Positions 19,174 to 63,020 of a stretch of 64,000 bases of DNA are shown here, one piece after another. Source of the DNA: Chloroflexia bacterium (GTDB lineage Bacteria; Chloroflexota; Chloroflexia; QHBQ01; JADMIH01); contig DASVVE010000023.1 of the NCBI GenBank assembly GCA_036386675.1, forward strand, positions 7,786 to 71,785, in the 5' to 3' direction. The position numbers were made by a program, and so were the translations under genes. The notes under the pieces are model-generated. The model was not told the DNA's origin, searched no databases, and was given only the letters and a program-made list of their open reading frames with translations. Within the stretch, counting starts at the first letter, position 1; each line of letters begins with the position of its first letter.

Positions 19174-19518
19174 CTGAAACGTGAAACGTGAAACGTGAAA
19201 CGTGAAACGTGAAACGTGATGCGGCTAACTGTACTTGGTTCGTGGGTGCGAGCTTGTTACTGTTGCGGGACCATCTTCCTTCCTGTCATTCTGAACGCAG
19301 TGAAGAATCTCGTCCCTCTCTTAGGTATAACACCTTTCTTGAGATGAGAGTGTTGCCCTTGGAAGAGGGCCGCTTGGGTGCTGTAGGACGAGATTCTTCG
19401 CTGAGTTCAGAATGACAGGGCCTACTTGGTTCTGTCCTGCCAACAGTCCAGCACTCACGTACCCTATTGCACAAGCCGCATTAAGTTTCACGTTTCACGT
19501 TTCAGAGCCACGTTTCAG
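19174..19518. repeat. Composite nested palindromic element (family 1, full form): (GAAACGT)6-GATGCGGC cap enclosing the inner module at 19284..19417
   Basis: Left cap CTGAAACGT x6 then GATGCGGC (19174-19225). Right cap GCCGCATTAAGTTTCACGTTTCACGTTTCAG... (19475-19518). The inner inverted repeat TGTCATTCTGAACGCAGTGAAGAATCTCGTCC pairs with GGACGAGATTCTTCGCTGAGTTCAGAATGACA. The right cap contains the stop codon of the GT4 gene. Confidence 0.9.
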
Positions 19519-20622
19519 CATCAATTTCTCGTACAGTTCCTCGACGTGGTTCACCATCTTGTCTATGGTGAAGTGCGCGTGCACCCTCGCCTGGCCTGAT
19601 GAGCCGAGGCGCTGGGCGAAATCGCGGTCTGTTATGAGACGGGCCAGGCCCTCCGTGAGAGCGGCCCTGTCGCCAGGCTCCACCAGCAGGCCCGTCGAGC
19701 CATCTTGCACCACTTCGGGTACGCCGCCCACGCGCGTGGCTACCACGGGCAAGCACATCGACATGGCCTCCAGCACGGCTATTGGCAACGCTTCCTTGTG
19801 CGAGGGCAAGACGAACACGTCCATCGCATTCAGCAGCCGGGTTACGTCGTCGCGGGTGCCGGTAAATAGCGCGGCCCCTGTATCGAGCATGCCCAACTCG
19901 CCTGCGTACTTCTCTAGGTCCGGGCGTAGCGGCCCGTCACCTATTATAAGCAGCCTTACGTGCGGGTGCGACTTTCGTAGCTCGTTCGCGGCCCAGAGGA
20001 GGTCGTCCTGGCCGCCCTTGTCGGCACTCAGGCGGCCCACTGTGCCGATTACCACGTCTTTCGGTGCAAGGCCGAGTTCCTGGCGCACCGTCGGGGCCTC
20101 GACCCCTGGCTTGAACCGCGAGATGTCCACACCATTATAGGTCACGTCGAGATAACGCGCGGGGATTCCCTCCATCTGCATGACCAATTGCTTGCTGGCT
20201 TCGGAGGGCACCAGGATACGGTCTGTGAGACGATAGAGGAGGCGGTCTACCCACACTTCGCGTTGCGCCTTGGACGACCAGTGCTCGTGCGCTATTATCA
20301 CCGGCACCCCGGCTAGCCTGCCGAGCACGCGACCCCAGGTGTTCGCGCCGAAGAGGTGGGTGTGGAGGACGTGCACGGGCTGGCGGCGCATGAAGCGCAC
20401 CAGGCCGAGCATCTTGTGGCTCTCCCAGCGGCTGTTGCGCTCTATCACGAGGGTGCGCACCCCGGCAGCGTCGAGCAGGGGTTGGTAGTTGCCGGTGTGG
20501 CGGGTGACTACCACGGTGACGTTGAAGCGGGAGCGGTCCAGGCGCAGCGCGAGGTCAACCAGGGCCTTCTCGGCCCCGCCCCGCCCAGTCACATCCGTCA
20601 TTTGCACCACGTTCAGCTTCAT
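19495..20622 (-). CDS. Glycosyltransferase family 4
   Basis: VVQMTDVTGRGGAEKAL at the N terminus and HKEALPIAVLEAMSMCLPVVATRVGGVPEVV at the C terminus. The last residues KRGSET and the stop are encoded by the GAAACGT repeat. Confidence 0.85.
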   Translation of the reverse strand: MKLNVVQMTDVTGRGGAEKALVDLALRLDRSRFNVTVVVTRHTGNYQPLLDAAGVRTLVIERNSRWESHKMLGLVRFMRRQPVHVLHTHLFGANTWGRVLGRLAGVPVIIAHEHWSSKAQREVWVDRLLYRLTDRILVPSEASKQLVMQMEGIPARYLDVTYNGVDISRFKPGVEAPTVRQELGLAPKDVVIGTVGRLSADKGGQDDLLWAANELRKSHPHVRLLIIGDGPLRPDLEKYAGELGMLDTGAALFTGTRDDVTRLLNAMDVFVLPSHKEALPIAVLEAMSMCLPVVATRVGGVPEVVQDGSTGLLVEPGDRAALTEGLARLITDRDFAQRLGSSGQARVHAHFTIDKMVNHVEELYEKLMLKRGSET

Positions 20623-20826
20623 ATGCCTCGCTTCCGCTCAGTTGGCAGCCGCGCAATAAGGAGGAGCCGTGCGGCCTGGCTCCTACCTGGATGATACCGG
20701 AAAATCGACGTTTCGTGCTATGACCCAAAGGTTTTGCCGCCGAGTAACAAAAGTACCGCTGGTGACGCGCTCCCGTACTTTTAGGCCATGCCGGGGAGCG
20801 GGAGCATGGTGTATGATTCTCGGTAG

Positions 20827-22017
20827 ATGAAATCACAGACCGGCAGGCCGCGTGCCCTACAAGCTATACGCACGGTAGACTCCCGGCAGACGGGCGGGCC
20901 GGAGGAATTGCTGCTGGCCTGCTCCCCCATCATGCGCGAGCGGGGGCAGTTCGACCCGGCGATACTCCTCCTGCGCAAGCCCAACCCCGCCGACCCTGAG
21001 CGAGACTTCCACACGCGAGCGCGCAAGCGCAACATCCCTGTGCTCGCTTTGCCGGAAATGCGCTGGCGCCCACGCTGGCTGCGCGCGTTGCCGCGTAGGA
21101 TGAACGTCGCCCTGGTGCACGTACACGGCCAGCGCGCCAACTACTTCATCTGGTTGATGCGGAGGCTGTTTCCTGGCACATGGGGCAGGTTGCCGTTGGT
21201 GGCTACGGTGCACGGTTGGGTGCAGGACAACTTCGTGCGCAAGGTCGTTACCAGGCTGGAACTGCTCACCCTGCGCGAGTGCGACCACATTATCACCGTT
21301 TCGCAGTTGCAGCAACGCACGCTGCTGGAGATGGGCTTCAGTCCTGATAGGGTGAGCGTGGTGCGGCCCGGCATCCCGGAGTTCGCGATGGGACGCAAGG
21401 CCACGGCAGAGGAGCGTCACAGTGCCCGCGCGCGGTGGGGCATACCGCAGGACGCTTTTGTGATATCAGCCATCGGACGGCTTTCAACGGAAAAGCGCTT
21501 CGACCTCTACCTGCAAGTATGCGCCGCGCTGGCCGAGCGATTGCCCGACGCCGTGTTTCTGCTGGTGGGTGGGGGCAAGCAGGAAGCCAACTTGAAGGAG
21601 CAGGCGGCTAGCCTGGGGCTGGGCGAGCGCCTGATATTCACAGGGCTGACGCGCGAGATGCCCAGCGTGTACGCAGCCACCGACCTTGTGATGATCACAT
21701 CGGACACCGAGGGCATACCCCACGTGTTGCTGGAAGCGATGGGCCAGGGCATCCCGGTGGTGTCTACCGCAGTGGGCGGCATACCGGAGATTGTCACCTC
21801 AGGCGAGAACGCACTACTGGTGCCCGCCGGCAGCCTGGACGACCTGGTGAACGCCGCGATACGCATCCACGACGAACCTGGGCTTGGGTGCCACCTGGCC
21901 GCGGGTGGCCGAGAAGTGGCCGGACAATTCACCATAGATCGACTGGTTGCCGGTACGGAGCAAGTCTACAAAAAGGTGCTGGACCGCCGGGCCGCACCGA
22001 GCACGCGAGCACGATAA
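20827..22017 (+). CDS. Glycosyltransferase family 4
   Basis: SDTEGIPHVLLEAMGQGIPVVSTAVGGIPEIV signature; the N terminus is less typical (QTGGPEELLL). Confidence 0.8.
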   Translation: MKSQTGRPRALQAIRTVDSRQTGGPEELLLACSPIMRERGQFDPAILLLRKPNPADPERDFHTRARKRNIPVLALPEMRWRPRWLRALPRRMNVALVHVHGQRANYFIWLMRRLFPGTWGRLPLVATVHGWVQDNFVRKVVTRLELLTLRECDHIITVSQLQQRTLLEMGFSPDRVSVVRPGIPEFAMGRKATAEERHSARARWGIPQDAFVISAIGRLSTEKRFDLYLQVCAALAERLPDAVFLLVGGGKQEANLKEQAASLGLGERLIFTGLTREMPSVYAATDLVMITSDTEGIPHVLLEAMGQGIPVVSTAVGGIPEIVTSGENALLVPAGSLDDLVNAAIRIHDEPGLGCHLAAGGREVAGQFTIDRLVAGTEQVYKKVLDRRAAPSTRAR

Positions 22018-22018
22018 C

Positions 22019-23229: not shown

Positions 23230-23402
23230 TGCGAAGGGCGGCGCCCGTCGATTGAAATCGAGGGCTACAGCTTGCGAAGTCTGCCCTGCGGCAGACTGGT
23301 ATATCTCAGAGCGTCTGAAACGACCTTGAAAGATGTATTAGTCCCCGAAGGGGGACTTTGCAAGGTGTAGCCCTCGATTTCAATCGACGGGCGCCGCCTT
23401 TG
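23230..23402. repeat. Long inverted repeat (about 50-bp arms) with terminal mini-hairpins
   Basis: The left arm GCGAAGGGCGGCGCCCGTCGATTGAAATCGAGGGCTACAGCTTGCGAAGTC (23230-23280) is nearly the reverse complement of 23353-23402. Each arm abuts a small hairpin (AGTCTGCCCTGCGGCAGACT and AGTCCCCGAAGGGGGACT). Confidence 0.85.
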
Positions 23403-29121: not shown

Positions 29122-29192
29122 CGTTGTGCTCGTTGGGTTTCATGCGCTAGCTAGTATCGCGCGCCGCGCGGGGGTTGTCAAGCGGGGCGATG

Positions 29193-29347
29193 CTGAAACG
29201 TGAAACGTGAAACGTGAAACGTGATGCGGTAAGGATTATAGGGTACGTGAATTCAACCCTGCTCCTAAGACGTGACCCTGCTCCAACTTCCCCGATTCAC
29301 GCACCCTCTTTAGCAAGCCGCATCACGGTTCACGTTTCACGTTTCAG
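29193..29347. repeat. Family 1 palindromic element, short form (no inner module)
   Basis: CTGAAACGT x4 then GATGCGG ... GGGTACGTGAATTC ... GATTCACGCACC ... GCCGCATCACGGTTCACGTTTCACGTTTCAG. Confidence 0.9.
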
Positions 29348-29502
29348 CACCCTCTGCATCATGATATGTAGGAACCACACTGGCATGTTCTCCATCTCCC
29401 ACTTGTGCTCCATGTTGGGCAGAATGTGAGTGTAGTAGCGATAATTGCGCGGCTGGGCTTGTGGCAAGCTTCGGCCCCAGTTGAACTGCGAAAGAGTCTA
29501 AC

Positions 29503-30859: not shown

Positions 30860-30883
30860 TACTTACTCCGTTTTCTGAGGCGT

Positions 30884-30969
30884 AAAACGTGAAACGTGAT
30901 GCGGCAAGGCTCACATGCTCACTAATAAAGAACCAAGTTCCACAAGTCTCATCACGTTTCACGTTTCAC
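30884..30969. repeat. Family 1 palindromic element, minimal form
   Basis: AAAACGTGAAACGTGATGCGGC ... GTCTCATCACGTTTCACGTTTCAC. The right arm contains the dxr stop codon (30952-30954). Confidence 0.85.
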
Positions 30970-32242: not shown

Positions 32243-32406
32243 CTCTGTTTCACTTTGTCATCCTGAGCGCAGCGAAGGATCAGGTGGGTAGATAAGAGTC
32301 CCCAACATTGGGGATGCTCATGGCAAGAGAAACACTGGTCCCTGAAAAGTAAGAGTCAAGAACGGGCTACTGATCCTTCGCTGCGCTCAGGATGACAGAG
32401 TGAAAC
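32243..32406. repeat. Variant inner-module inverted repeat (TGTCATCCTGAGCGCAGCGAAGGATCAG) extended by GTTTCAC/GTGAAAC
   Basis: The left arm CTCTGTTTCACTTTGTCATCCTGAGCGCAGCGAAGGATCAG is mirrored by CTGATCCTTCGCTGCGCTCAGGATGACAGAGTGAAAC. Confidence 0.85.
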
Positions 32407-34306: not shown

Positions 34307-34308
34307 TC

Positions 34309-35819: not shown

Positions 35820-35922
35820 CTGAAACGTGAAACGTGAAACGTGATGCGGCTTGTGGGATAGTGTCCCATCTTGGCCTCACTGGTACTTGTAGTACCATCA
35901 CGTTTCACGTTTCACGTTTCAG
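35820..35922. repeat. Family 1 palindromic element, short form
   Basis: CTGAAACGT x3 then GATGCGGC ... CATCACGTTTCACGTTTCACGTTTCAG. It starts 3 nt after the tsf stop, inside the tsf-pyrH gap. Confidence 0.9.
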
Positions 35923-38793: not shown

Positions 38794-40818
38794 TCACCGC
38801 TCATCACGGTATATCCAGTAGTTGCTCTGTTCTACTACTAACTGTTTACGCTCATCAATGTCTCGCTGCGTTTCTTCTGTCAGACGATTCCGTCCGGTGG
38901 CATGGATCACCACTAGAGGCGCTCGCGAGACTCGGTCCAGAAAGTCGGCTTGGGGAGCGGGACGGTACATCACGCCATAAACATCGGGCCGCTCGCCTGG
39001 TATAGCCAGCTCGTTCCGCCTGCCATTCAATACAGCCGACCACAGGTCACCCATATCGCGGGTGTTCAGGCCGATACCGAGGGAGATCATGTGGCCGTAG
39101 CTGTCTACCAGGTAGCCGGTGGCGTTGTGACTGGGCGGCCGGGCGGCCAGGAGGTTGAACTGCTCGTCGGTAGCGAGGACGGGAGTGCCGGGCGGGACGG
39201 CGTTGTTCACATAGCGCCCCACCACCTCGAAAATGCGCTCTTCGTACCGGGTCACAATGCCGGTCCACTGCACCACCAGCAGGGGCAGCAACACAACAGC
39301 CAACAGCGCGGGCGCGGCAATGCGCAGGAGCATAACACGTGAGGTTCCTACGCGGGACGCAAGTCGGCGTAGCAGGCTGGGCAGCAGGCTGACGGCGGCC
39401 CCTAGCAGGCAGAGGGGGGCGGCAAGCTGTATGTAGTAGTGCTGGTAGAAGGAGCGGCTGTAGGTGAACAGCAGCACGCTGAAGAACATCCAGATAGCGA
39501 CCACCCACCAGCCGCCGGTGGAGCGCCGCTGCCATATCGACGCGGAGAGTACCAGGAAGCCGAAGGCGGCAAGCAGCAGCGTAGAGGGATTGCGCAAGGT
39601 GGCGGTGAGGTCGGCTATGCGGGCCGGGATTTCAGCTATGCCATCGCTCGGCCTGAGTAGTTGGAAGAAGAACACGTCGCGCACGAACTGCGATGGAGCC
39701 AGCACCAGGAAAGGCAGCAGCACGACCAAGGCTCCGGCAAGCGCACCTCCTAGAGCGAACAGCAGCCCGGCACCTACACGGCGGGTATCCTCGCCTTTAC
39801 GTGAGCTAAAGCGATATGTCGCCCATAGCCACGTCATGTCTGTGAGGATGGCAAGCATGCAGGCCACTCCCGCAATCTTGGTCAGCGTGCTGAGTGCCCC
39901 GCATATGCCGCAGAGGACGAGCAACCATAAGGCAGTCTTTCGCCTGGGGGCATTGGCTTCGCCTGCAAGGTATGGGCGCGCCCACAAATAGAGAAGTAAG
40001 GCCGCACACGATAGGAGCACCATTGGGCCATCCAGCATGACCTTGCGGTTGATCTCGACCACGCGTCCGTCCAACGCCCAGAGTAGCCCGGCCACGGTGC
40101 CACCTGCCAGCCCCGCCAGCCTTGTGCCGACGAGGAAGAGCAGCGCCAGGGTGATGAGGCTGTAGCCAACCGACAGATAGCGGGCCATCATAAAGGAAGT
40201 CGGGCTGCCCCACTCGTTGAAGTGATAGGCCATTGCAGGCGCGTAGGAGAAGGCGGCCACGGGCGGGTGGGCGAAGAAGTAATCGCGGTAGGGCATGATG
40301 CCCTGGAGGAAGAGTTGCGAGGCCCCGGCGTACACCCCTTCGTCGTCGTAGGGACGCTCGCTGAGGCCAACCTCTTGCGGCAACAGCAGCACCATGCGAC
40401 CGAAGCCCGCCACGAGCACCAGCGCCATTAGCACCACGGCGGGCACGAGCCAGCGCCTAGGGCTTGTGCTGCTAGTCGCCCGGTCTTCCCTAGCTTCCAC
40501 GATCGAGGGACGAGTGCGGAACGTGAGCAGGCCAACCCCCAGCAGCCAGGCGGCCCAGGGCAGCCAGGGCGTGCCATCGAAGTGCGAATGCACAGGTGCA
40601 AGGAAGTCCAGGGAGGCAGGCGCATTGGAGGACGAGGGCAGCCCGAACCAGGCACTAACCCCGGTCGCAAGCAACGAAAAAAGGCGCAGGTGAATCACCA
40701 CGCCTATTACGCCGTACAGGATGAGCGCCCCGGCTATGTAGGGCACCAGACGACCCCCGCCCTCACGTACCTCAGCTTGCATAGCCCGATTGTCGCACGA
40801 GGGGAACGGGAGTGTCAA
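38794..40818 (-). CDS. GT-C fold glycosyltransferase, family 39 (PMT/ArnT-like)
   Basis: 674 aa and multi-TM. The first periplasmic loop reads RPYDDEGVYAGASQLFLQGIMPYRDYFFAHPP (DE motif as in PMT_2-type enzymes). Start is TTG 40818 or ATG 40782. Confidence 0.7.
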   Translation of the reverse strand: MTLPFPSCDNRAMQAEVREGGGRLVPYIAGALILYGVIGVVIHLRLFSLLATGVSAWFGLPSSSNAPASLDFLAPVHSHFDGTPWLPWAAWLLGVGLLTFRTRPSIVEAREDRATSSTSPRRWLVPAVVLMALVLVAGFGRMVLLLPQEVGLSERPYDDEGVYAGASQLFLQGIMPYRDYFFAHPPVAAFSYAPAMAYHFNEWGSPTSFMMARYLSVGYSLITLALLFLVGTRLAGLAGGTVAGLLWALDGRVVEINRKVMLDGPMVLLSCAALLLYLWARPYLAGEANAPRRKTALWLLVLCGICGALSTLTKIAGVACMLAILTDMTWLWATYRFSSRKGEDTRRVGAGLLFALGGALAGALVVLLPFLVLAPSQFVRDVFFFQLLRPSDGIAEIPARIADLTATLRNPSTLLLAAFGFLVLSASIWQRRSTGGWWVVAIWMFFSVLLFTYSRSFYQHYYIQLAAPLCLLGAAVSLLPSLLRRLASRVGTSRVMLLRIAAPALLAVVLLPLLVVQWTGIVTRYEERIFEVVGRYVNNAVPPGTPVLATDEQFNLLAARPPSHNATGYLVDSYGHMISLGIGLNTRDMGDLWSAVLNGRRNELAIPGERPDVYGVMYRPAPQADFLDRVSRAPLVVIHATGRNRLTEETQRDIDERKQLVVEQSNYWIYRDER

Positions 40819-40903
40819 ACGAGTGGTTAGTGGTTAGTAGGACAACCACTAACCACTAACCACTAACCACTAACCACTAACCACTAACCACTAACCACTC
40901 GTT
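40818..40903. repeat. GGTTAGT-heptamer hairpin (3 units on the left arm, 8 complementary units on the right arm)
   Basis: AACGAGTGGTTAGTGGTTAGTAGG ACAA (CCACTAA)x7 CCACTCGTT. The right end overlaps the TAA stop of the LiaF-like gene (40902-40904). Confidence 0.9.
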
Positions 40904-42074
40904 ACTTGGACCTGATGTTGAGGTTGCCCACGCCGTGATCGATCTTGATGGTCACCTTGTTCGTGGCGGTGTCGTAGGCGCTCGATTCGTAGGTGTCCTC
41001 ACCCTGGCTAGAGAAGCGGTGGTCTACGGTCGTGTTGCCGATGCCGGAGTCTACCTCGATGCGGGCTTCCAGGCCTTCGGGCACGATTAGCTCAAGGTTA
41101 CCTGTGCCGCCATCTAGCTCGACGGTGGTGTTATTGGCGGTGGCCGGTAAGGTAATGCTGGCGTTGCCAGTGCCGCTGTCAACGGTCAGGCCGCTAAGTT
41201 GCAGATCTTCAAGGTCAAGAGTCATATTGCCGGTACCGGCATCAACCTCCAGGTTCACAGGCACGCGCTCATTCAAGGTGATCACCCAGCCTGGCGAGCG
41301 GCCGCCGTTGAACCAGTGCGGGGCGAAGTTCCAGCCGCCGGAGCGTTCCGCGATCTCCACTTCGGCGGTGTTGCCGCTCTCGTTCACATCCACACGGGGC
41401 GCGCCGTGGTTCTCGTAGTAACCGAGATCGCCTCTCGCTAGCTCATTGGGCTCACCCGACATGCTGCCGATGGTCAGGCTGCCGACGCCCATGTCCACGT
41501 GCACGTCAGCTGACTTTGCGGTGTTCAGGCGAATGTCGAGCTGGGCGCTAGCTAGCTCGCCGGGAGCCGTGAAGCCACTGTTGGCGTACACGATAGCACC
41601 CCCTGTCCCCAAAACGGCCAGCACCAGCAGCAAGGAGATGACAGGGCTACGTCGACCCACCACGAGGTCGATGCCTATAGCGATCAAGATAAGAGGCCAC
41701 AGGCGACCAAGCGTCTCCCATATGGTCCAGGGCACCACGCCCAGGTTGTTGAGCAGGAACAGCACGCCCGCCGATATCAAGAGCAGCGGGCCGAGCAGTG
41801 GCGCGCGATGGTGCCTGTGGTTGTGAGGCGGCGATCCAGCGAGGGGCACCGGCTGCGAGGAACCATAAGGTGGGTATGGCTGGTATGGCGGCGGAACGGG
41901 AGCCGAAGGTGTTCCCCCTGCATAGTTGCCGCTGTAAGTGTCCTGCGGGCGTATCTCCGAGGGCACGTACGTAGTGGGTTGGCCTCCGTAGTTGGAGGGA
42001 GAAGCTTGCGGCAGGAGTGGGCCGGTGTCGTTGCCTCCCACTCTCGCGCTGCTGTCATTACGGTTTTGTTCCAT
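40902..42074 (-). CDS. LiaF-like / DUF4097 ('toast-rack') membrane protein
   Basis: Pro/Tyr-rich N terminus, then TM helices, then C-terminal repeats of the DxGxGN type (DAGTGNMTLDL, DSGTGNASITL, DGGTGNLELIV, DSGIGNTTVD). Confidence 0.7.
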   Translation of the reverse strand: MEQNRNDSSARVGGNDTGPLLPQASPSNYGGQPTTYVPSEIRPQDTYSGNYAGGTPSAPVPPPYQPYPPYGSSQPVPLAGSPPHNHRHHRAPLLGPLLLISAGVLFLLNNLGVVPWTIWETLGRLWPLILIAIGIDLVVGRRSPVISLLLVLAVLGTGGAIVYANSGFTAPGELASAQLDIRLNTAKSADVHVDMGVGSLTIGSMSGEPNELARGDLGYYENHGAPRVDVNESGNTAEVEIAERSGGWNFAPHWFNGGRSPGWVITLNERVPVNLEVDAGTGNMTLDLEDLQLSGLTVDSGTGNASITLPATANNTTVELDGGTGNLELIVPEGLEARIEVDSGIGNTTVDHRFSSQGEDTYESSAYDTATNKVTIKIDHGVGNLNIRSK

Positions 42075-47304: not shown

Positions 47305-47634
47305 CTGAAACGTGGTTCTGAAACGTGAAACGTGATGAGGCTTGCTATTGCTGGTACGTGAATAGGAGGCTGTCTCTAACGTGGGACCATCTTCCCCTTT
47401 GTCATTCTGAACGCAGTGAAGAATCTCGTCCCTTAGCACCCAAGTTGCCCCTTTCTCCTGGGCACGTGTCTTCTTCGAGAAAAGTGGAACATCCCGGTAG
47501 AGGACGAGATTCTTCGCTATGCTCACAATGACAAAGCCCAACAGCGTCCTGCCCTACAAACAGGGTGGTATTCACGAACCGAATAACACCAGCCGTATCA
47601 CGTTTCACGTTTCACGTTTCAGAAACCCCGTTTC
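47305..47634. repeat. Family 1 composite element, full form (inner module 47398..47536, inverted relative to copy 19174)
   Basis: Starts 2 nt after the pheT stop with CTGAAACGTGGTTCTGAAACGTGAAACGTGATGAGG. Subterminal GGTACGTGAATA pairs with TATTCACGAACC. The right cap is CGTATCACGTTTCACGTTTCACGTTTCAGAAACCCCGTTTC. Confidence 0.9.
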
Positions 47635-47645
47635 TTGCTTCGCCC

Positions 47646-51171: not shown

Positions 51172-51335
51172 GAAACGCCAAGACGCAGAGACGCCAAGGA
51201 CCACGCCAAGATTAAGGATTGTTTGGTTTAAACAAAAGGAGCAGGGTACAACAGCATGTACCCTGCTCCTTTTATACCCTCTAAACCCTAATCCTCTTGG
51301 CGTGGTCCTTGGCGTCTCTGCGTCTTGGCGTTTTC
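51172..51335. repeat. Family 3 palindromic element wrapped around a canonical terminator
   Basis: The left arm GAAACGCCAAGACGCAGAGACGCCAAGGACCACGCCAAG is mirrored by CTTGGCGTGGTCCTTGGCGTCTCTGCGTCTTGGCGTTT (38-nt perfect match). The right arm lies inside the 3' end of the GlcD-like ORF. Confidence 0.9.
51231..51276. terminator. Bidirectional intrinsic terminator
   Basis: 14-bp stem AGGAGCAGGGTACA / TGTACCCTGCTCCT with a 6-nt loop, flanked by AAACAAAA on one side and TTTTAT on the other. It lies between convergent genes. Confidence 0.75.
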
Positions 51336-53877: not shown

Positions 53878-54117
53878 TACGTCGCCACTCGTCCGGCACG
53901 ATACAGTCCTGGCATCCTAGACTCCGGCTATATGAGCCGTCATCCGTCTCACCAGCAGAGACGTAATGTCCGGCTACGCGTGTGGCACGTTACCTGAAGA
54001 ACCTTGTGATGCTGAGAACCGCCCTTACTTCAGGTGGAACACCCAGGTGACCAGGGGACAGGCTTCTAAGATTGTAGCCAACACCTTCTATCCTGGCTGC
54101 CAATCAGTGGTACTGAC

Positions 54118-54237
54118 GAGGACTGAGGGCTGAGTCAGAAGAATAGAGAAGCGGCTAGTGCGCAAACTAGCCGCCTTTTTTATATGAGCATGTTGGATAA
54201 CCACCACTCAGTCCTCAGTCCTCAGTCCTCAGTCCTC
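54118..54237. repeat. CAGTCCT-heptamer hairpin wrapped around a terminator
   Basis: GAGGACTGAGGGCTGAGT (54118-54135) pairs with ACTCAGTCCTCAGTCCTCAGTCCTCAGTCCTC (54207-54237). The DUF4388 stop codon (54229-54231) lies inside the array. Confidence 0.85.
54137..54182. terminator. Intrinsic terminator (bidirectional shape) downstream of the DUF4388 gene
   Basis: 9-bp stem GCGGCTAGT / ACTAGCCGC with T7 on the plus strand and a U-rich UUCUCUAUUCUUC tail on the minus strand. Confidence 0.65.
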
Positions 54238-56142: not shown

Positions 56143-56171
56143 GGAAGGTGGGACAACATAATAGCTAAGCA

Positions 56172-56306
56172 GACTTTCAGGGCAGGGTGAGATTCCCGAC
56201 CGGCGGTAAGGCGAATGTCGTACAAAGCAGTTGCCAAGCCCGCGAGCCGCAAGGCAGACCCGGTGAGAAGCCGGGGCCGACGGTATAGTCCGGATGGAAG
56301 AAAGTC
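56172..56306 (+). promoter_or_regulatory. FMN riboswitch (RFN element) aptamer
   Basis: P1 pairs GACUUUC with GAAAGUC. Conserved blocks are AGGGCAGGGUGAGAUUCCCGACCGGCGGUAA, AGCCCGCGAGCC, CCGGUGAGAAGCCGGGGCCGACGGUAUAGUCCGGAUGGAAGAAAG. This is a near-textbook match to the B. subtilis ribD leader as I recall it. Confidence 0.9.
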
Positions 56307-56404
56307 GAACAAGCCGCACGCGCGGTGGCATCTCATGCAGGGCCGCGCGGTCGAAGGCCGGGTCATCCCGGTGTTCGCGCATGGGGCTGTTCACGATTCC
56401 TCGA

Positions 56405-56438: not shown

Positions 56439-57338
56439 ATGGGCTATGCAGAGACAGAGACAACCACGCCACAGAACATGAGTGGCTACAACCGCATAAC
56501 CGGTGTTCCTACCGGGCCGCGTAACGGGCACCCCGAACAGGATGCCGTGTTGCTTGCGCCAGATGAGCCGGACAGGGCGCTTGCCGTACGCACTACCCTG
56601 CTGCGGGCGTTGGTGGGGTTAGTGGCACTGGCGGGGCTGGTGTTGGTCTGGTGGCTGCTGGTGGCGGTGGGCAATTATCCGCCGTTCATCTTGCCCGCGC
56701 CGCTGGACGTGGCTGAGCGGACCTGGAGCATGCTGCTTGACGGCTCGCTGTGGCTGCATTTCGGCACTACCACGCTTGAGGCGGGGCTGGGGTTTGTGCT
56801 GGCGCTGCTGGTCGGATTGCCGCTTGGTTACTTGCTGGCGCATAGCAGGCGGCTTGAGCGGGTGGTCAGCCCCTACATCGCCGTCAGCCAGGGGTTGCCG
56901 GTGGTGGCTATCGCGCCTCTGCTGGTGCTCTGGTTGCAGGATGATTTGGCGCGCAAGGTGGTGATTGTCGCGCTTATCGTGTTCTTCCCGCTGCTGGTAA
57001 ACGCCGTCGTGGGGCTGCGCGGGATTGACAGGTCGATGCTGGAGGTGGCGCGGATATCGGGCGCGAACCGCTGGCAGACGATCTGGTACGTGGAGCTGCC
57101 GCTGAGCCTGCGGGCGCTGCTGGGGGGGGTGAAGCTGGGGCTTACCCTCTCGATCACAGGCGCGGTGGTGGGCGAGTTTGTGTCGTCGGGGGCGGGGCTG
57201 GGGTTCCTGCTCATGCTGGGTAGGGGGCTGTTCGATACGACGCTCATCTTCGTGGGGCTGGTGTCGCTGGCCTTCCTCACGGTGGTGGCGTACCTGGGGG
57301 TTAGCCTGCTGGAGAAGTGGCTGATTAGCTGGGAGTAG
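56439..57338 (+). CDS. ribX: ABC transporter permease (NitT/TauT-ThiX type), predicted riboflavin transporter component RibX
   Basis: Six hydrophobic helices with a BPD_transp_1-like loop (EVARISGANRWQTIWYVELPLSL). It sits under the FMN riboswitch. Start is uncertain (ATG 56439 or 56478, neither with an SD). Confidence 0.75.
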   Translation: MGYAETETTTPQNMSGYNRITGVPTGPRNGHPEQDAVLLAPDEPDRALAVRTTLLRALVGLVALAGLVLVWWLLVAVGNYPPFILPAPLDVAERTWSMLLDGSLWLHFGTTTLEAGLGFVLALLVGLPLGYLLAHSRRLERVVSPYIAVSQGLPVVAIAPLLVLWLQDDLARKVVIVALIVFFPLLVNAVVGLRGIDRSMLEVARISGANRWQTIWYVELPLSLRALLGGVKLGLTLSITGAVVGEFVSSGAGLGFLLMLGRGLFDTTLIFVGLVSLAFLTVVAYLGVSLLEKWLISWE

Positions 57339-57394
57339 TGGTTAGTGGTTAGTGGTTAGTGGTTAGTGGTTAGTGGTTAGTGGTTAGTGGTTAG
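57339..57394 (+). repeat. (TGGTTAG)8 tandem heptamer array, no complementary arm
   Basis: Eight exact units start 1 nt after the ribX TAG stop. Same unit as the hairpin at 40818. Confidence 0.95.
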
Positions 57395-57442
57395 TTAGAG
57401 TTTGCGCGAACAAATTACGAGGATTTAGGAGATTACACAGAA

Positions 57443-58525: not shown

Positions 58526-58535
58526 GGTATGTGGG

Positions 58536-58863
58536 CTGAAACGGGGTTCTGAAACGGGGTTCTGAAACGTGAAACGTGATGCGGCTTGCTATTGTTGGTG
58601 CGTGAATACGAGGTCATTGATATACAGGGGCCATATTCCCCCTGTCATCCTGAACGCAGTGAAGGATCTCAAGAAGTTGAGGAGTGGTGCTGTTGAACGT
58701 GTGGGTCACGGTGCTACAGGTTCAGTGCCGTGGTAAGAGGAGCATCTGAGATCCTTCACTGCGTTCAGGATGACAGGGGGAATATGGTCCCGCCAAAGTA
58801 AACGTCTAGCATCCACGAACCAACCATAGCAAACCGCATCACGTTTCACGTTTCACGTTTCAG
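58536..58863. repeat. Family 1 composite element, full form (inner module 58629..58790 with 43-bp near-perfect arms)
   Basis: CTGAAACGGGGTTCTGAAACGGGGTTCTGAAACGTGAAACGTGATGCGGC forms the left cap. The inner arm GGCCATATTCCCCCTGTCATCCTGAACGCAGTGAAGGATCTCA is mirrored at 58747-58790. The right cap CCGCATCACGTTTCACGTTTCACGTTTCAG contains the stop of the MBL-like gene. Confidence 0.9.
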
Positions 58864-59584: not shown

Positions 59585-59599
59585 GTTACGCTCCTGGTT

Positions 59600-59909
59600 C
59601 TGAAACGTGAAACGTGAAACGTGATGCGGCTTGTGATGTTTGGTACGTGAATATGAGGCTGCTCGATTGCAGGGCCGAGTCTCTACTTTGTCATTCTGAA
59701 CGCAGTGAAGAATCTCGTCCTCTACCCCGATGTTTCCCTTTTCTTAGGGCACACTGTTACCAATCGAAAAGTGCTCCTTGGGTGCTGTAGGACGAGATTC
59801 TTCACTGCGTTCAGAATGACAAAGGCCCTACGGCGACTCGCAACTAAAGCAGAGTCCCATTCACGTACCTATTGAGCAAGCCGCATCACGTTTCAGATCC
59901 ACGTTTCAG
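59600..59909. repeat. Family 1 composite element, full form (inner module 59687..59824)
   Basis: CTGAAACGT x3 then GATGCGGC, GGTACGTGAATA ... the inner inverted repeat ... CATTCACGTACC, GCCGCATCACGTTTCAGATCCACGTTTCAG. It fills the pknB-to-MBL gap. Confidence 0.9.
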
Positions 59910-59913
59910 CATC

Positions 59914-61896
59914 CTACTGCCTGCGGCGCAGCACGATGTTGACTACGCCATTTTCTTCTATCTCGGTGCCAGGGGCTGGGTCGGTGCGCAGGACCGCGCC
60001 GGGCGGGACGCTCTCGTTCGGGTCGTCTTCTTCTGTGACGGAGCCTACCGAGAGGCCGAGGGATTCCAGGCGTTGTTGTGCGAGTTCGAGGTTTTCGGTG
60101 CCTCGCAGGTCGGGCACGCGCTGGCTCCTGCCCAGGCTGATGTAGATAGTCACAGCCTGGCCCGACTTGACGCTGGTGTCGGCGGGAGGGTCGGTCCGGG
60201 TGACTATACCTTTTTGCACGGCATCACTGCCCTCGTAGGCGATTGTCACCCGCAGGCCGGTGCTTTCCAGCACGCCGCGCGCCTCGTTGGGGTCGGTGTT
60301 GGTCAGGTTGGGCAGCTTGAACGCGGGCGGGCCACGGCTGACGCGCACGGCTATCTGGCTCGTCTGCTTGAGGATGGAGTTTTCGGGCGGGTCTTGCTGG
60401 GCTACCACGCCTTCAGGCCACTCCACGCTGTCTATGCGGTCCAACTCGAACAGCTGGAAGCCGTTCTGCCGCGCAATCACTATGGCGTCCTGCACCCGCA
60501 GTCCGACCAAGTTCGGCACAGGCACCGATTGAGGGGTGCTGGTGGCGGTTGGAGTGAGGGTGGGGGTGGAGGTGGGCGTGTTGGTGGGAGGCACGGCCGT
60601 GTTGGTGGGGGTGGCTGTGGGCACGGTGGGCGTGGCGGTGGGGCTGGGTATGACGCGTACCTGGAAGAGGCCCGGCAGGTTGGGGCCGATTACGATAACG
60701 CCGCCAATCAGGACGGCCAGTATGCCCAATGTGATGAACGTGATAGCGGCAATCATGCAGCCGGAGCTACCCGCACCCGACTGGGCGCGGGGCACCGGGG
60801 CGACGGCCATCGAGGTCGGGCTGCCAAGCGGGCTGGTCATGCCCCTGGTCGGAAGCGTGCCCGCCGCCGCGCCGCCCATTGCGTAGGCCCCTCGTGGCCC
60901 CGCGCCAACGCGTAAGGAGCCGGTAGCGGGACCGGAGGCGCTCATGCGGCTTGTCCTGGCACCCACCTGGGGAGGCTGCTGGCCGCGCGGCCGGGGCTGA
61001 ATGTTCACCTGGGCGACGGGCACCTCCATCGTGGGTTGCTGGCCGCCCATTTGTATCGCCCGGAGCGCCTTCTCCATCTCCGCCGCGCTGCCGAACCGCT
61101 GTTGAGGGTCCTTAGCCATCGACTTCAGGATGACGGCATCGAGGCGTGGGGGCACGGAGGGATTCAGGTTGCGGGCCGAAGGGGCCTCTTCGGAGATGTG
61201 CTTGTAGGCTAGGCCCATGATGTTTTCGCTCTCGAACGGCAAGCGCCCGGTGAGCATTTCGTAGAGGGTCACACCTACAGCGTAGATGTCGGACTGGGGC
61301 ACCACGCGCTCGCCCTTGGCCTGTTCGGGGGAGAAATAGTGGGCGGTGCCGAGCGCAAGTCCAGCCTCGGTGAGACCCAGGTCGGACACGCTCTTGGCGA
61401 TGCCGAAGTCGGTGACTTTGACCGCGCCATCAGGCGTGATAAGCACGTTCTGGGGCTTGATGTCGCGGTGGATGAGGCCGCTACGGTGGGCGTACTCAAG
61501 GCCCGCGAGGATCTGTGCGGCGACCGAAATAGCTTTGCCGATGGGCAGGGGCGAGGAGCGATTGATGTAGCTCTTGAGGCTCTCGCCGTTGATGTACTCC
61601 ATTACGATGTAATGGATATCGCCGTCCTGCCCCACGTCGTAGACGTTGACGATGTTGGGGTGGGCGAGATTGGCGGCGGCCTGGGCTTCGCGCCGGAAGC
61701 GGGCGACGAATTGGGCGTCGGTGGAATATTGCTCGCGGAGCACCTTGATGGCGACGATGCGGCCCAGGATGTTGTCGCGGGACTTGTAGACCTGGGCCAT
61801 GCCACCGCCGCCTACCACGCTGATGAGTTGGTACCGCCCGTTGAGCACGCGACCTATTCCGCCGCTCGTATTTTCGCCGCCGCTGTTGTCAGCCAA
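59914..61896 (-). CDS. pknB: Ser/Thr protein kinase with extracellular PASTA repeats (PknB/Stk1-like)
   Basis: Kinase motifs GGGGMAQVY, VAIKVL, HRDIKPQNVL, DFGIAK and SPEQA are present. They are followed by one TM helix, a Thr/Pro-rich linker and three PASTA-like modules. Confidence 0.9.
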   Translation of the reverse strand: MADNSGGENTSGGIGRVLNGRYQLISVVGGGGMAQVYKSRDNILGRIVAIKVLREQYSTDAQFVARFRREAQAAANLAHPNIVNVYDVGQDGDIHYIVMEYINGESLKSYINRSSPLPIGKAISVAAQILAGLEYAHRSGLIHRDIKPQNVLITPDGAVKVTDFGIAKSVSDLGLTEAGLALGTAHYFSPEQAKGERVVPQSDIYAVGVTLYEMLTGRLPFESENIMGLAYKHISEEAPSARNLNPSVPPRLDAVILKSMAKDPQQRFGSAAEMEKALRAIQMGGQQPTMEVPVAQVNIQPRPRGQQPPQVGARTSRMSASGPATGSLRVGAGPRGAYAMGGAAAGTLPTRGMTSPLGSPTSMAVAPVPRAQSGAGSSGCMIAAITFITLGILAVLIGGVIVIGPNLPGLFQVRVIPSPTATPTVPTATPTNTAVPPTNTPTSTPTLTPTATSTPQSVPVPNLVGLRVQDAIVIARQNGFQLFELDRIDSVEWPEGVVAQQDPPENSILKQTSQIAVRVSRGPPAFKLPNLTNTDPNEARGVLESTGLRVTIAYEGSDAVQKGIVTRTDPPADTSVKSGQAVTIYISLGRSQRVPDLRGTENLELAQQRLESLGLSVGSVTEEDDPNESVPPGAVLRTDPAPGTEIEENGVVNIVLRRRQ

Positions 61897-62068
61897 TAGC
61901 TACCCCAATCACCCGACATGCAACAATTCTGCGCGCTGGCACACACCTTGCGCTATAGTCTCGGACCCAGCACGGAGCGTCGCGTACACTTTTGCACATT
62001 GAATAGGTACGCATAACACTCCTGATAAAGATTGTAAACCAGCCTATGGGGCATGTCAAACGTTTTGG

Positions 62069-62139
62069 GTTGTTAGTTGCCAGTTGTTAGTTGTTGGTGC
62101 TGAGATCAAATTCGCAATCCGAAATCCGAATTTCCAAAT
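62069..62139. repeat. Adjacent half-elements: GTTGTTAGTTG simple repeat plus a single family 2 arm
   Basis: GTTGTTAGTTGCCAGTTGTTAGTTGTTGGTG (62069-62099), then CAAATTCGCAATCCGAAATCCGAATTTCCAAAT (62107-62139) with no partner arm. Confidence 0.7.
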
Positions 62140-62185
62140 ACCTATGTTACAATAGCCCTATTATGGGCTGTGCGCGGAGGAACTG

Positions 62186-62905
62186 ATGGACACACCTAAC
62201 ACGCGGGGCTTTAACGAGCAAGATTCGCGGGATAACAGGACCAGCGAGGGTCCCACGTCTACTCCTGTTGAGGGCCGGGACATGGTTGGCGAGGGGAGGA
62301 GCCTGGCCCCTGAGCAAGACCCGGTGAACGCGGTAAACCCCATGGCTAGCCCCAGCAGCTATTCCCTGAACGCGATAGAGGCAGGGGATACGCCGCTAGA
62401 TGAGGAGCTTGACTTGCTGGTGGACCCGGATATGGATCGCGAGCAGTTGAGCAACAACCCGGACGTGCTCAATCTCGACGCTAGCTGGCGGGTGGAGAGC
62501 GAGGAAGCCGATTTCATGGGCGACCCAGGTACCACGGATATTATAGAGGCGATTGAGGAAGGCGAGCCTTATTTCCCGCCGACCGACCCACCGCTGAGGA
62601 CCGTGGGCCTGAACAACGTGGAGACGCTAGGCGGCTTCTCTATCACCTCCCTTGAGGAGCCGACAGAGCCGGTGGACGACCCGGTGCGTCTGCAACTCAA
62701 CGACGACGAGATTGCCGGGCGGGTGCGCTATGCCCTCGCTACAGATGCATATACTGCCGACCTCAATATTGAGGTGGAGGTGCAGGACGGGACGGTGTAC
62801 CTGCACGGCACCGTCGGCTCGCTGGACGATGTAGAGCAGGCGGAGCAGATAGCGGGCAGCGTGCCGGGTGTGATTGAAGTGGAAGAGGATTTGGAGATAG
62901 TTTAG
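62186..62905 (+). CDS. BON domain protein with an acidic N-terminal region
   Basis: The C-terminal VRYALATDAYTADLNIEVEVQDGTVYLHGTVGSLDDVEQAEQIAGSVPGVIEVEEDL is a BON domain. SD GGAGG lies upstream. TGtTACAAT (extended -10) is at 62145-62153. Confidence 0.75.
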   Translation: MDTPNTRGFNEQDSRDNRTSEGPTSTPVEGRDMVGEGRSLAPEQDPVNAVNPMASPSSYSLNAIEAGDTPLDEELDLLVDPDMDREQLSNNPDVLNLDASWRVESEEADFMGDPGTTDIIEAIEEGEPYFPPTDPPLRTVGLNNVETLGGFSITSLEEPTEPVDDPVRLQLNDDEIAGRVRYALATDAYTADLNIEVEVQDGTVYLHGTVGSLDDVEQAEQIAGSVPGVIEVEEDLEIV

Positions 62906-63020
62906 AGGTAACAGGTAACGAGTAACACGTAACGCGTTAGGTGGCTAAAGCGAGCGTGTGGCTTAAGGAGTAATTATCTTGCGCCCGCACCATTACGTGT
63001 TACACGTTACCTGTTACTCC
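62905..63020. repeat. GGTAACN-heptamer hairpin filling the BON-PHP gap
   Basis: GAGGTAACAGGTAACGAGTAACACGTAACGCG (from the last nt of the TAG stop) pairs with CATTACGTGTTACACGTTACCTGTTACTCC, which ends 2 nt before ATG 63023. Confidence 0.9.

What the first reader, a model, noticed from the sequence alone, without database searches (positions are those of the whole stretch)
19174..63020. Four sequence-unrelated heptamer-repeat hairpin families whose arms put a stop codon in all three frames in front of the adjacent gene
Units GAAACGT (reads ..ACG TGA..), GGTTAGT (TAG), AGGACTG (the reverse complement of the CAGTCCT array; TGA) and GGTAACN (TAA) each contain a stop triplet. Because 7 is coprime to 3, three tandem units give a stop in every frame. 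In every copy here the stop-bearing strand faces the gene that reads into it. On the plus strand these are pheT->47305, ribX->57339, ribY->58536 and BON->62905. On the minus strand they are GT4 19495, dxr 30952, tsf 35925, LiaF-like 40902, DUF4388 54229, MBL-like 58853 and pknB 59914. In the palindromic copies both outer ends are capped this way for inward reading. The 8/9-mer family (GCCAAGAC/GCAGAGAC) and the GGAAATT/CGAATT family carry no stops, and there the GlcD-like ORF reads about 30 codons into the arm. A shared design (heptad period, stop triplet, hairpin) across unrelated sequences looks like selection for a 'translation bumper plus stem-loop' at gene ends. I do not know of a description of it.
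Basis: seen in the sequence. Interest (0 to 1): 0.75.

Follow-up and report, generated by a model that had tools for sequence, protein, structure and literature searches.

The report
Heptamer-repeat hairpins crowding gene ends
The 7-base repeat hairpins at gene ends are real, but they are an uncultured Chloroflexia lineage's version of known intergenic heptamer and palindromic repeats, and their stops in all three frames occur no more often than base composition predicts.

Summary
The described sequence is there.

The adaptive reading does not hold up:
- Both ends of a palindrome show the same strand to inward-reading genes, and copies of one family are not independent. GGTTAGT has stops on both strands.
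- GAAACGT and GGTAACN share a CGT[GA]A core and replace each other at orthologous sites, so they are not unrelated.
- In window plus 112 related loci, 26 of 52 heptamer families carry a stop against 28.4 expected from letter shuffles. For gene-facing strands it is 10 of 21 against 9.4.
- In the window, 9 gene ends abut stop-less repeat families against 12 with stops. A relative has a stop-less TTGCGTA hairpin at the same dxr site.
- MacGregor (2015) already described three-frame stops in heptamer repeats.

Best reading: these are fast-turning-over REP/BIME/STRR-like palindromic repeats inserted into junctions that were ancestrally stop/start overlaps. Stop-bearing ends are tolerated over the stop codon and supply the real stop of GT4, dxr and the MBL-fold gene. 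Stop-less ones extend the ORF (GlcD-like). Any RNA-level role is inferred, not shown.

The parts
19173..19518 (.). GAAACGT composite hairpin A. Outer TGAAACG arrays at 19175-19219 and 19485-19504, module GATGCGGC, and a nested inner palindrome at 19282-19419. It encodes the last 8 codons and the TGA of GT4.
29191..29349 (.). GAAACGT hairpin B, without the inner palindrome. It lies between an intrinsic-terminator-like hairpin (29513-29539) and a promoter-like site (29181-29153). No gene reads directly into it.
30881..30969 (.). Short GAAACGT hairpin C between dxr and rseP. It supplies the dxr tail ..VKRET and the TGA. Its loop is inverted relative to relative L049. Relative L054 has a GTAACNC hairpin here and L114 a TTGCGTA hairpin.
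35820..35922 (.). GAAACGT hairpin D, 2 nt after the tsf stop and upstream of a promoter-like site for pyrH. Conserved in L049; replaced by a GTAACAC hairpin in L054.
47305..47640 (.). GAAACGT composite hairpin E in the convergent spacer between pheT and gene 47646-48224.
58536..58862 (.). GAAACGT composite hairpin F in the convergent spacer between the NMT1/THI5 binding-protein gene and the MBL-fold gene. It has a 13-mer outer repeat CTGAAACGGGGTT and supplies the MBL tail ..SET and the TGA.
59601..59914 (.). GAAACGT composite hairpin G between pknB (stop 5 nt before the element) and the MBL-fold gene start.
40817..40904 (.). Asymmetric GGTTAGT/AACCACT hairpin (2.4 against 8 units), 1-2 nt after the LiaF-like gene's stop. 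The unit has stops on both strands.
57336..57395 (+). GGTTAGT x8.6 single array with no inverted partner. Its first TAG is the stop codon of the ABC permease gene.
54110..54237 (.). AGGACTG x4.4 array paired with a degenerate partner (about 54110-54135). It encloses a bidirectional intrinsic-terminator-like hairpin at 54149-54176 and supplies the last 2 codons and the TGA of the DUF4388 gene.
62906..63018 (.). GGTAACN (CGTAAC-core) hairpin. It starts right after the BON gene's TAG and ends 4-5 nt before the ATG of the PHP gene.
18421..18500 (.). AATT-family hairpin: degenerate heptamers with no stops in the arms. The gene's TGA overlaps the element end. Other copies lie at 27406-27479, 34233-34307, 43270-43351 and 49465-49574.
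51173..51333 (.). 8/9-mer (GCCAAGAC/GCAGAGAC) hairpin without stops. It encloses a terminator-like hairpin (about 51228-51275), and the GlcD-like ORF reads about 15 codons through its arm. Other copies lie at 26060-26311, 44600-44640 and 55825-56090.
32247..32406 (.). Solo copy of the inner palindrome TGTCATCCTGAGCGCAGCGAAGGATCAG. Another solo copy is at 12740-12852. Nested copies sit inside elements A, E, F and G.

Best explanation
WHAT IT IS
The window comes from an uncultured Chloroflexia lineage. Its intergenic DNA is crowded with several families of dispersed, modular palindromic repeats. Their outermost arms are tandem arrays of 7 nt (sometimes 8-9 nt).

They are the local counterpart of two known things. 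One is intergenic heptanucleotide repeats: cyanobacterial STRR, Beggiatoaceae TAACTGA and Xanthomonas GGGAATC. The other is mosaic palindromic repeats of the REP/BIME/REPIN type.

WHAT IS SHOWN
- They occupy the short spacers at gene 3' ends. At the dxr-rseP junction the ancestral state was a stop/start overlap.
- They abut or overwrite the stop codon.
- They turn over quickly at the same sites. Between relatives at 88-95% nucleotide identity, arrays change copy number, unit type and loop orientation.

WHAT IS INFERRED
- Stops in all three frames follow arithmetically from a 7-nt unit built from T plus purines.
- The stops act as a permissive filter, not a selected device. An element whose gene-facing strand has them can sit on top of a stop codon with only a 2-8 residue tail change. 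A stop-less element lengthens the protein, as in the GlcD-like gene.
- Arm symmetry is kept at the DNA level, by copying or template switching between arms, or by replacement with sister copies.
- As RNA the elements would fold into very stable stem-loops right after the stop codon. They could then act like REP/BIME elements, as 3' end stabilisers or cistron insulators. This was not tested.
For: STRUCTURE AND ABUNDANCE
- Arrays and hairpins are real.
- The period-7 excess is specific to this lineage: 296 arrays against at most 14 for other periods. There are 2 in 591 kb of distant dxr loci.
- 21 of 33 window spacers of at least 80 nt hold a palindrome with arms of 14 nt or more.
- Architecture is modular: conserved inverted modules separated by unrelated spacers.
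- Two array hairpins enclose terminator-like hairpins.

ORIGIN BY INSERTION AND COPYING
- AATT copies share arm and loop homology, so they spread by copying.
- In 72 distant dxr loci the next gene starts at a median of -4 nt with no hairpin.
- Four related genomes hold four different hairpins at that site, one of them stop-less, and one loop is inverted.
- Element-encoded C-termini and stop codons occur in GT4, dxr and the MBL-fold gene.
- The stop-less 8/9-mer arm is read through by the GlcD-like ORF.

STOPS ARE AT CHANCE LEVEL
- Stop content matches letter-shuffled units.
- The probability that the letters of GAAACGT give a stop on a given strand is 0.6.

DNA-LEVEL SYMMETRY
- There is no sense/antisense asymmetry in folding energy: 63 against 52, p=0.14.
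- There are no target-site duplications.

LITERATURE
- PMC4679880: three-frame stops confine forward TAACTGA repeats to ORF ends.
- PMC4692102: stop-less GGGAATC heptamers lie on average 28 nt from the upstream ORF, sometimes as inverted pairs.
- PMC6764699: no evidence for selected fail-safe stops in eubacteria.
Against: - No mobilising enzyme was found. No protein family recurs next to arrays in 0.83 Mb, and no autonomous element is bounded by these arms.
- Spacers between modules are unrelated among copies. That fits poorly with recent transposition of whole composites.
- An array-level orientation bias persists even where the ORF's own stop lies upstream of the array: 20:7 excluding the ascertained family.
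- Interleaved GTGAAAC/GTGATGC arrays with an invariant CGTGA core occur in several phyla. This hints at a sequence-specific factor that the explanation does not name.
- The loci were collected by a GAAACGT pattern and genes were called with a crude ORF/GC3 rule. The statistics are therefore indicative, not genome-wide.
- No transcript data exist.
Confidence: 0.6

Rival explanations
1. Heptad period, stop triplet and hairpin form a selected design. The design is a translation bumper that halts read-through or frameshifted ribosomes in all frames before a protective or terminating stem-loop. It arose independently in unrelated sequences.
For: - All gene-facing arms of the four families in the window carry stops, usually in all three frames within 41 nt or less.
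- There is an array-level orientation bias of 51:17 overall, or 20:7 without GAAACGT.
- Only 15 of 667 internal GAAACGT-type units lack a stop triplet.
- When GAAACGT is replaced at the dxr and tsf sites in L054, the new GTAACNC unit also carries a stop.
Against: - No family-level enrichment over letter shuffles: 26/52 against 28.4, and 10/21 against 9.4.
- Palindromic symmetry and shared ancestry make the copies non-independent.
- GGTTAGT has stops on both strands.
- The families are related. The C and G of the core are as conserved as T, G and A.
- Stop-less families are about as common at gene ends, 9 against 12. One sits at the same dxr site in L114.
- Counter-oriented families exist: AATTACG (6 pairs), AAATCGT and AGCTATC.
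- Arrays also lie in divergent spacers.
- After GT4, MBL and dxr the remaining frames are not capped.
- The prior is weak: PMC6764699 finds no selection for fail-safe stops in eubacteria.
Confidence: 0.1
2. The elements are not mobile. Arrays grow in place by replication slippage of a 7-nt seed next to a pre-existing hairpin, such as a terminator or older palindrome. Quasi-palindrome template switching then copies them to the other side, so palindromes thicken outward like an onion.
For: - Arrays are always the outermost layer.
- Two enclose terminator-like hairpins. Others enclose the inner palindrome.
- Copy number differs between orthologues.
- Arms change in concert between orthologues, for example GGAAATT in the window against GGGAATT in L037.
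- There are no target-site duplications and no nearby transposase.
- Spacers between modules are unrelated.
Against: - The same long arms, and partly the same loops, recur at unlinked loci. AATT arms of 32-33 nt are identical at 18421 and 43272, and a 31-nt arm is shared by L026 and L049.
- The same unit families recur in several genomes and phyla.
- At orthologous sites whole elements including loops are replaced.
- All of this needs dispersal or ectopic conversion, not only local growth.
Confidence: 0.15
3. The arrays are tandem binding sites, one per 7 nt, for a sequence-specific nucleic-acid-binding protein. It could be a regulator or an oligomeric RNA-binding protein of the TRAP/HutP/CSP kind, or a recombinase. 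It recognises a short core such as CGTGA, and its gene spread horizontally together with the repeats.
For: - A 5-nt core CGTGA is invariant, with 2 variable positions (AA, TG, AG, GG).
- GTGAAAC and GTGATGC units interleave in Chloroflexota, Desulfococcaceae, Verrucomicrobiota, Limisphaerales and Gallionellales.
- The strict 7-nt period holds across many unit sequences.
- MacGregor proposed S1, Csp or Csr-type binders for TAACTGA repeats (PMC4679880).
Against: - There are dozens of different unit sequences (52 families), too many for one binder.
- Both arms are kept as exact complements, with no strand asymmetry. That points to DNA-level symmetry, not a single-stranded RNA site.
- No candidate gene co-occurs in the loci.
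- Core conservation can also reflect descent from two successful unit types.
Confidence: 0.1

Closest known systems
TAACTGA heptamer direct repeats of marine Beggiatoaceae, cyanobacteria and Bacteroidetes (MacGregor 2015, PMC4679880)
   Same: Both are intergenic tandem 7-nt repeats. The unit carries stop triplets, so forward repeats stop all three frames and can overlap ORF ends by only a few codons. Both have a patchy cross-phylum distribution and no known mechanism.
   Different: TAACTGA repeats are almost all direct, with only one inverted set. They lie mostly just upstream of start codons. Here the arrays are paired as long hairpins, abut stop codons, and come in many unit types.
Cyanobacterial STRR heptanucleotide repeats (Mazel 1990) with nested small dispersed repeats (Elhai 2008), both recalled from memory, and the general heptamer SSR excess (Mrazek 2007, as cited in PMC4692102)
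   Same: Several unrelated 7-nt units occur as tandem arrays in non-coding DNA of filamentous bacteria. The excess of period 7 is lineage-specific. Other small repeats are nested within them.
   Different: STRR is described for cyanobacteria, not Chloroflexota. A systematic hairpin arrangement and stop-codon adjacency are not part of the description as I recall it. The Elhai paper could not be opened.
GGGAATC (Xanthomonas) and GGGGAYT (Nostoc) heptamer repeats (Rehm 2015, PMC4692102)
   Same: They are intergenic and much closer to the upstream ORF (average 28 nt) than to the downstream one. Some occur as inverted pairs able to form stem-loops. Length and sequence vary between close relatives.
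   Different: Those units are G-rich, can form quadruplexes, and carry no stop triplet on either strand. That shows gene-end placement does not need stops.
REP / BIME / REPIN elements of proteobacteria (PMC3116915)
   Same: They are high-copy extragenic palindromes at gene 3' ends and between cistrons. They have a mosaic modular build, lack target-site duplications, occur as hairpin doublets, and evolve within a genome (remainder from general knowledge).
   Different: REPs are single imperfect palindromes of 20-40 nt, not tandem heptamer arrays. They are tied to a RAYT transposase, which was not found here (no dedicated HMM search was done).
MITEs such as Correia or Nezha elements (from memory)
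   Same: They are short non-coding elements with terminal inverted repeats. They are dispersed in intergenic DNA and sometimes fuse to ORF ends.
   Different: No target-site duplication, no related autonomous IS, and the terminal repeats are tandem arrays of variable length.

Membership tests
Intergenic heptanucleotide tandem repeats (STRR / long-SSR type) | Head-to-tail copies of a 7-nt unit, 3 or more units long | tested here: met
   TRF and regex find 11 perfect arrays of at least 3 units in the window, with up to 8.6 units.
Intergenic heptanucleotide tandem repeats (STRR / long-SSR type) | Period 7 over-represented relative to neighbouring periods, in a lineage-specific way | tested here: met
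   296 arrays of period 7 against at most 14 for periods 4-12. Only 2 arrays in 591 kb of distant dxr loci, both in the close relative L113.
Intergenic heptanucleotide tandem repeats (STRR / long-SSR type) | Non-coding location, with copy number varying between relatives | tested here: met
   All copies lie in spacers or overlap only ORF ends. Example of variation: 6.4 units in the window against about 2 in L037, and the dxr site differs in all four genomes.
REP / BIME / REPIN | High-copy extragenic imperfect palindromes with a mosaic of conserved modules | tested here: met
   21 of 33 spacers of at least 80 nt hold palindromes. Conserved inverted modules are separated by unrelated spacers.
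REP / BIME / REPIN | Associated RAYT (Y1) transposase in the genome | tested here: inconclusive
   No protein family recurs near the arrays in 0.83 Mb. The whole genome was not available and no Y1 HMM scan was run.
REP / BIME / REPIN | Unit is a single 20-40 nt palindrome with a conserved head tetranucleotide | tested here: not met
   The arms are tandem 7-nt arrays of variable length and there is no GTAG-type head.
MITE (DDE-transposase mobilised) | Target-site duplication flanking the terminal inverted repeats | tested here: not met
   The flanks of 63 GAAACGT hairpins show no direct duplication. The terminal repeat consensus extends to GGTTCTGAAACG.
MITE (DDE-transposase mobilised) | A parent IS with the same terminal repeats | tested here: inconclusive
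   No array pair 0.6-3 kb apart encloses an ORF, and no transposase cluster recurs. Only partial genomes were sampled.
Intrinsic (Rho-independent) terminator | G+C-rich stem of 5-20 bp followed directly by a U-tract | tested here: not met
   The array hairpins are not picked up by the terminator scan and have no T-run. Two of them only enclose such a hairpin, at 54149-54176 and about 51228-51275.
   10 of 21 families against 9.4 expected (P=0.49). On any strand, 26 of 52 against 28.4 (P=0.83).
   In the window, 9 gene ends abut AATT or 8/9-mer elements against 12 with stop-bearing arrays. L114 has a stop-less TTGCGTA hairpin at the dxr site. Xanthomonas GGGAATC is another example.
   This needs ribosome profiling or reporter assays in a cultured relative.

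The most novel reading that the evidence does not exclude
The heptamer-array hairpins could be built and kept uniform by an unidentified machinery that is shared horizontally and works with a 7-nt ruler.

That machinery would recognise short cores, such as the CGTGA core shared by Chloroflexota, Desulfococcaceae, Verrucomicrobiota and others. It would lay symmetric arrays outward around existing hairpins and terminators at gene ends.

Stop-bearing termini would then be an adaptation at the level of the element. They would let the element colonise overlapping stop/start junctions of essential operons.

In some gene pairs the stem may also bring the upstream stop next to a downstream start codon that has no Shine-Dalgarno sequence. 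That would couple translation across the hairpin.
Probability: 0.12. Interest if true: 0.7.

Novelty: new member of a known kind. Interest (0 to 1): 0.3.

Why it matters
- The result removes an attractive but unsupported adaptive story. The stops are arithmetic plus a survivorship filter.
- It documents that an uncultured soil Chloroflexia lineage carries an unusually dense and fast-changing population of heptamer-array palindromes.
- These sit inside otherwise conserved housekeeping operons (rpsB-tsf-pyrH-frr-uppS-dxr-rseP) and even supply the stop codons and C-terminal residues of essential genes.
- For annotation, ORF ends next to these arrays are defined by the element, and stop-less arrays create artificial C-terminal tails.
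- The still unexplained 7-nt 'ruler' and the cross-phylum CGTGA core add a new lineage to the open question of how bacterial heptamer repeats arise and spread.

Tried and rejected
- Known RNA families: Rfam at gathering score found only the FMN riboswitch. The permissive scan of 57300-63100 found only a spurious miRNA hairpin at E=0.048.
- tRNA or tmRNA association: none.
- Target-site duplications around 63 GAAACGT hairpins: none.
- A recurrent neighbouring gene such as a transposase or binder: all-against-all BLASTP of 616 ORFs from the window plus 112 loci gave only ordinary paralogues and orthologues.
- RNA-level selection on the sense strand: the sense-minus-antisense folding energy difference was not significant, 63 against 52, p=0.14.
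- TGA as the specifically conserved part of the unit: rejected, because C and G of the CGTGA core are equally conserved in internal units. An earlier count was distorted by boundary units.
- Canonical terminators: terminator-like sites are not enriched in the window, with 18, 13 and 10 found against 14.1, 12.3 and 11.4 expected.
- Integron attC, CRISPR repeat and box C/D resemblances were considered from memory and dropped, because the consensus does not match and the genes are housekeeping.
- Metagenome scan for close relatives of the dxr locus: only two at 78% amino-acid identity. The other 78 loci served as a negative control.
- Elhai 2008 could not be opened.
- Full-text searches for the repeat sequence itself, and for heptamer repeats in Chloroflexi, found no description.

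Full report
WHAT IS THERE

The gene identifications are correct. They are a GT4 glycosyltransferase, dxr, tsf, a LiaF-like protein, a DUF4388 protein, an MBL-fold protein, a PASTA kinase, an ABC permease, an NMT1/THI5 binding protein, a BON protein and pheT.

Period 7 is a genuine excess. In the window plus 112 loci fetched with a GAAACGT pattern (827 kb), there are 296 perfect arrays of at least 3 units with period 7. No other period from 4 to 12 has more than 14. In 591 kb around dxr genes from other lineages there are two, both in the single close relative.

Most arrays are the outer arms of long hairpins, at -37 to -64 kcal/mol and z from -5 to -12.6. The array at 57336 has no partner. The AGGACTG array has a degenerate one.

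The nearest relatives are soil Chloroflexia/Chloroflexota MAGs at 88-95% nucleotide identity.

ANATOMY

- The seven GAAACGT elements are modular palindromes. From outside in they have CTGAAACG arrays plus GTGATGCGGCTTG, then GGTACGTGAAT. In four copies there is then a nested inner palindrome, TGTCATTCTGAACGCAGTGAAGAATCTCGTCC, which also occurs alone. The modules are conserved but the spacers between them are unrelated.
- Arrays are always the outermost layer.
- The AGGACTG hairpin and an 8/9-mer hairpin each enclose a terminator-like stem flanked by an A-tract and a U-tract.
- 21 of the 33 window spacers of at least 80 nt contain a palindrome with arms of 14 nt or more. This includes three of the six divergent spacers.
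- The elements interrupt the conserved rpsB-tsf-pyrH-frr-uppS-dxr-rseP cluster at four junctions.

RELATION TO STOP AND START CODONS

Elements begin between about -24 and +25 nt from the stop codon, with a median near +1.

- GT4, dxr and the MBL-fold gene end in element-encoded tails (..LKRGSET*, ..VKRET*, ..GGGSET*).
- The permease and DUF4388 genes use the first units of their arrays as stop codon.
- Three AATT copies fuse the gene's TGA to the element end (TGATTTGG).
- The stop-less 8/9-mer arm is read through for about 15 codons by the GlcD-like ORF, whose Pfam domain ends 33 residues before the stop.

In 72 distant dxr loci the next gene starts at a median of -4 nt and there is no hairpin. 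In this lineage the element is therefore an insertion into an ancestrally overlapping stop/start junction. That alone explains why it touches both the stop codon and the next gene's ribosome-binding region.

TURNOVER

At the dxr-rseP junction four related genomes differ:
- The window has a short GAAACGT hairpin.
- L049 has a longer GAAACGT hairpin with the loop inverted. The loops are 40/51 identical as reverse complement against 21/51 direct.
- L054 has a GTAACNC hairpin inside a GAAACGT remnant.
- L114 has a TTGCGTA hairpin with no stop triplet on either strand.

At the tsf site L054 again has GTAACAC where the window and L049 have GAAACGT. AATT-family orthologues differ by matched changes in both arms, and sub-families recur at unlinked loci within a genome.

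No target-site duplication and no recurrent neighbouring gene were found.

TESTING THE 'BUMPER' IDEA

1. Both outer ends of a palindrome present the same strand to inward-reading genes, and all copies of a family share one architecture. All 102 GAAACGT pairs do. The number of independent observations is therefore the number of families, not of copies.
2. GGTTAGT/AACCACT has stops on both strands.
3. The families are not unrelated. GAAACGT, GATGCGT and GTAACNC share a CGT[GA]A core, interleave in the same arrays and replace each other.
4. A random heptamer has a stop on a given strand with probability 0.21-0.36, depending on G+C. The letters of GAAACGT give 0.6.
5. Across 52 families, 26 have a stop on some strand against 28.4 expected from shuffling each unit's letters (P=0.83). 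For arrays lying downstream of an ORF whose own stop precedes them, the majority gene-facing strand has a stop in 10 of 21 families against 9.4 expected (P=0.49).
6. Families with a stop on only one strand split 8 facing to 3 opposite, which is not significant. Counter-examples include AATTACG hairpins (6 pairs) and stop-less ACGATGG hairpins (9 pairs).
7. In the window, 12 gene ends abut stop-bearing arrays and 9 abut stop-less families.
8. Arrays also occur in divergent spacers, in 12 of 57. That compares with 80 of 238 tandem and 15 of 41 convergent spacers.
9. In internal units the C and G of the core are as invariant as T, G and A. Only the two bases after TGA vary.
10. After GT4, MBL and dxr the remaining frames are not capped.

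An array-level bias remains, 51:17 overall and 20:7 without the ascertained family. It is what a few expanded, related, palindromic families would give. It is also what a permissive filter would give: only stop-bearing ends are tolerated on top of a stop codon.

LITERATURE

- MacGregor (PMC4679880) states that forward TAACTGA heptamer repeats encode stops in all three frames. They can therefore overlap ORF ends by at most 18 nt. She reads this as a constraint on where the repeats can persist.
- Rehm et al. (PMC4692102) describe stop-less GGGAATC heptamers. They lie on average 28 nt from the upstream ORF against 160 nt from the downstream one. Some form inverted pairs, and they vary extensively between close relatives.
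- Ho and Hurst (PMC6764699) find no evidence for selected fail-safe stops in eubacteria.
- I found no description of these repeats in Chloroflexota or of the GAAACGT unit.

HOW IT MOST LIKELY WORKS

Shown: the elements are insertions at gene 3' ends, they turn over quickly, they supply real stop codons, and they would fold into very stable stems.

Inferred:
- They spread by copying or ectopic conversion, and arrays grow by slippage.
- Arm symmetry is kept at the DNA level. Folding energy shows no sense-strand bias, 63 against 52, p=0.14.
- Three-frame stops matter as a tolerance filter.
- In transcripts the stems may stabilise 3' ends or insulate cistrons, as REP/BIME elements do. Promoter-like hexamers follow three of them.

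Unexplained: the 7-nt ruler, and the occurrence of interleaved GTGAAAC/GTGATGC arrays with an invariant CGTGA core in several phyla.

VERDICT

The adaptive interpretation is not supported, and the three-frame-stop property is already known. The elements themselves are a new member of known kinds: heptanucleotide repeats and REP/BIME-like palindromes. Interest is modest.

Limits: the related loci were collected by one repeat pattern, gene calls outside the window are heuristic, and no expression data exist.

Noticed in passing
window 30904-30951 vs L049 about 1470-1520: The loop of the dxr-site hairpin is inverted between two genomes (40/51 identical as reverse complement, 21/51 direct). Either recombination between the arms flipped it, or the element re-inserted in the other orientation.
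   Followed up: yes
L003, L015, L019, L066 (Desulfococcaceae HSG8); L042, L048, L055, L091 (Verrucomicrobiota); L057 (Gallionellales); L097, L028 (Planctomycetota); L111 (Gemmatimonas): Interleaved GTGAAAC and GTGATGC heptamers, often as hairpins, occur in several phyla with local G+C from 0.46 to 0.66. Possible causes are horizontal spread, a shared mechanism or, for some MAGs, mis-binning.
   Followed up: partly
window 12740-12852, 19282-19419, 32247-32406, about 47400-47535, about 58640-58790, 59686-59824: A separate palindrome family, TGTCATYCTGARCGCAGYGAAGRATC, occurs solo or nested in the centre of GAAACGT elements, in two sub-types. From memory, similar motifs are widespread in other phyla. 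This was not checked.
   Followed up: partly
window 18411, 34224, 49579, 63023 (start codons): Four downstream genes start 4-15 nt after the 3' base of a hairpin with no Shine-Dalgarno-like sequence in between. The upstream stop sits at the 5' base. The stem would bring stop and start together, so translation may be coupled across the hairpin.
   Followed up: no
window 54149-54176 and about 51228-51275: Bidirectional intrinsic-terminator-like hairpins (A-tract, G+C stem, T-tract) sit in the loops of an AGGACTG heptamer hairpin and of an 8/9-mer hairpin. The arrays look like outer layers added around older hairpins.
   Followed up: partly
L114 about 880-910 (dxr 3' end): In a relative with 78% dxr amino-acid identity, dxr ends ..VIRET* (CGTGAAACATAA). 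This looks like a relic GAAACGT unit now fixed as coding sequence, although the adjacent hairpin is of the TTGCGTA type.
   Followed up: partly
window 56169-56309: An FMN riboswitch (114 bits) lies upstream of the ABC permease and the NMT1/THI5-like binding-protein genes. It is preceded by an 8/9-mer palindrome (55825-56090) in the divergent spacer.
   Followed up: no
window 23234-23401 and 14545-14633: Two further palindromes are not built from short tandem units. One has 48-nt arms that are 94% complementary. The other is G+C-rich, and in L037 the inner-palindrome family replaces it.
   Followed up: no
window 57336-57395 and 40817-40904: GGTTAGT arrays read as UAG-N4 repeats (period 7). From memory, this is the spacing recognised by HutP-type RNA-binding proteins. 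No such protein was looked for.
   Followed up: no
window 60533-60588, 42416-42457, 47938-47968: In-frame tandem repeats lie inside coding regions: a G-rich 6/24-mer in the PASTA kinase gene, a 9-mer x4.7 in the PspC-domain gene, and a perfect 9-mer x3.4 in gene 47646-48224. Their periods are multiples of three, unlike the intergenic heptamers.
   Followed up: no
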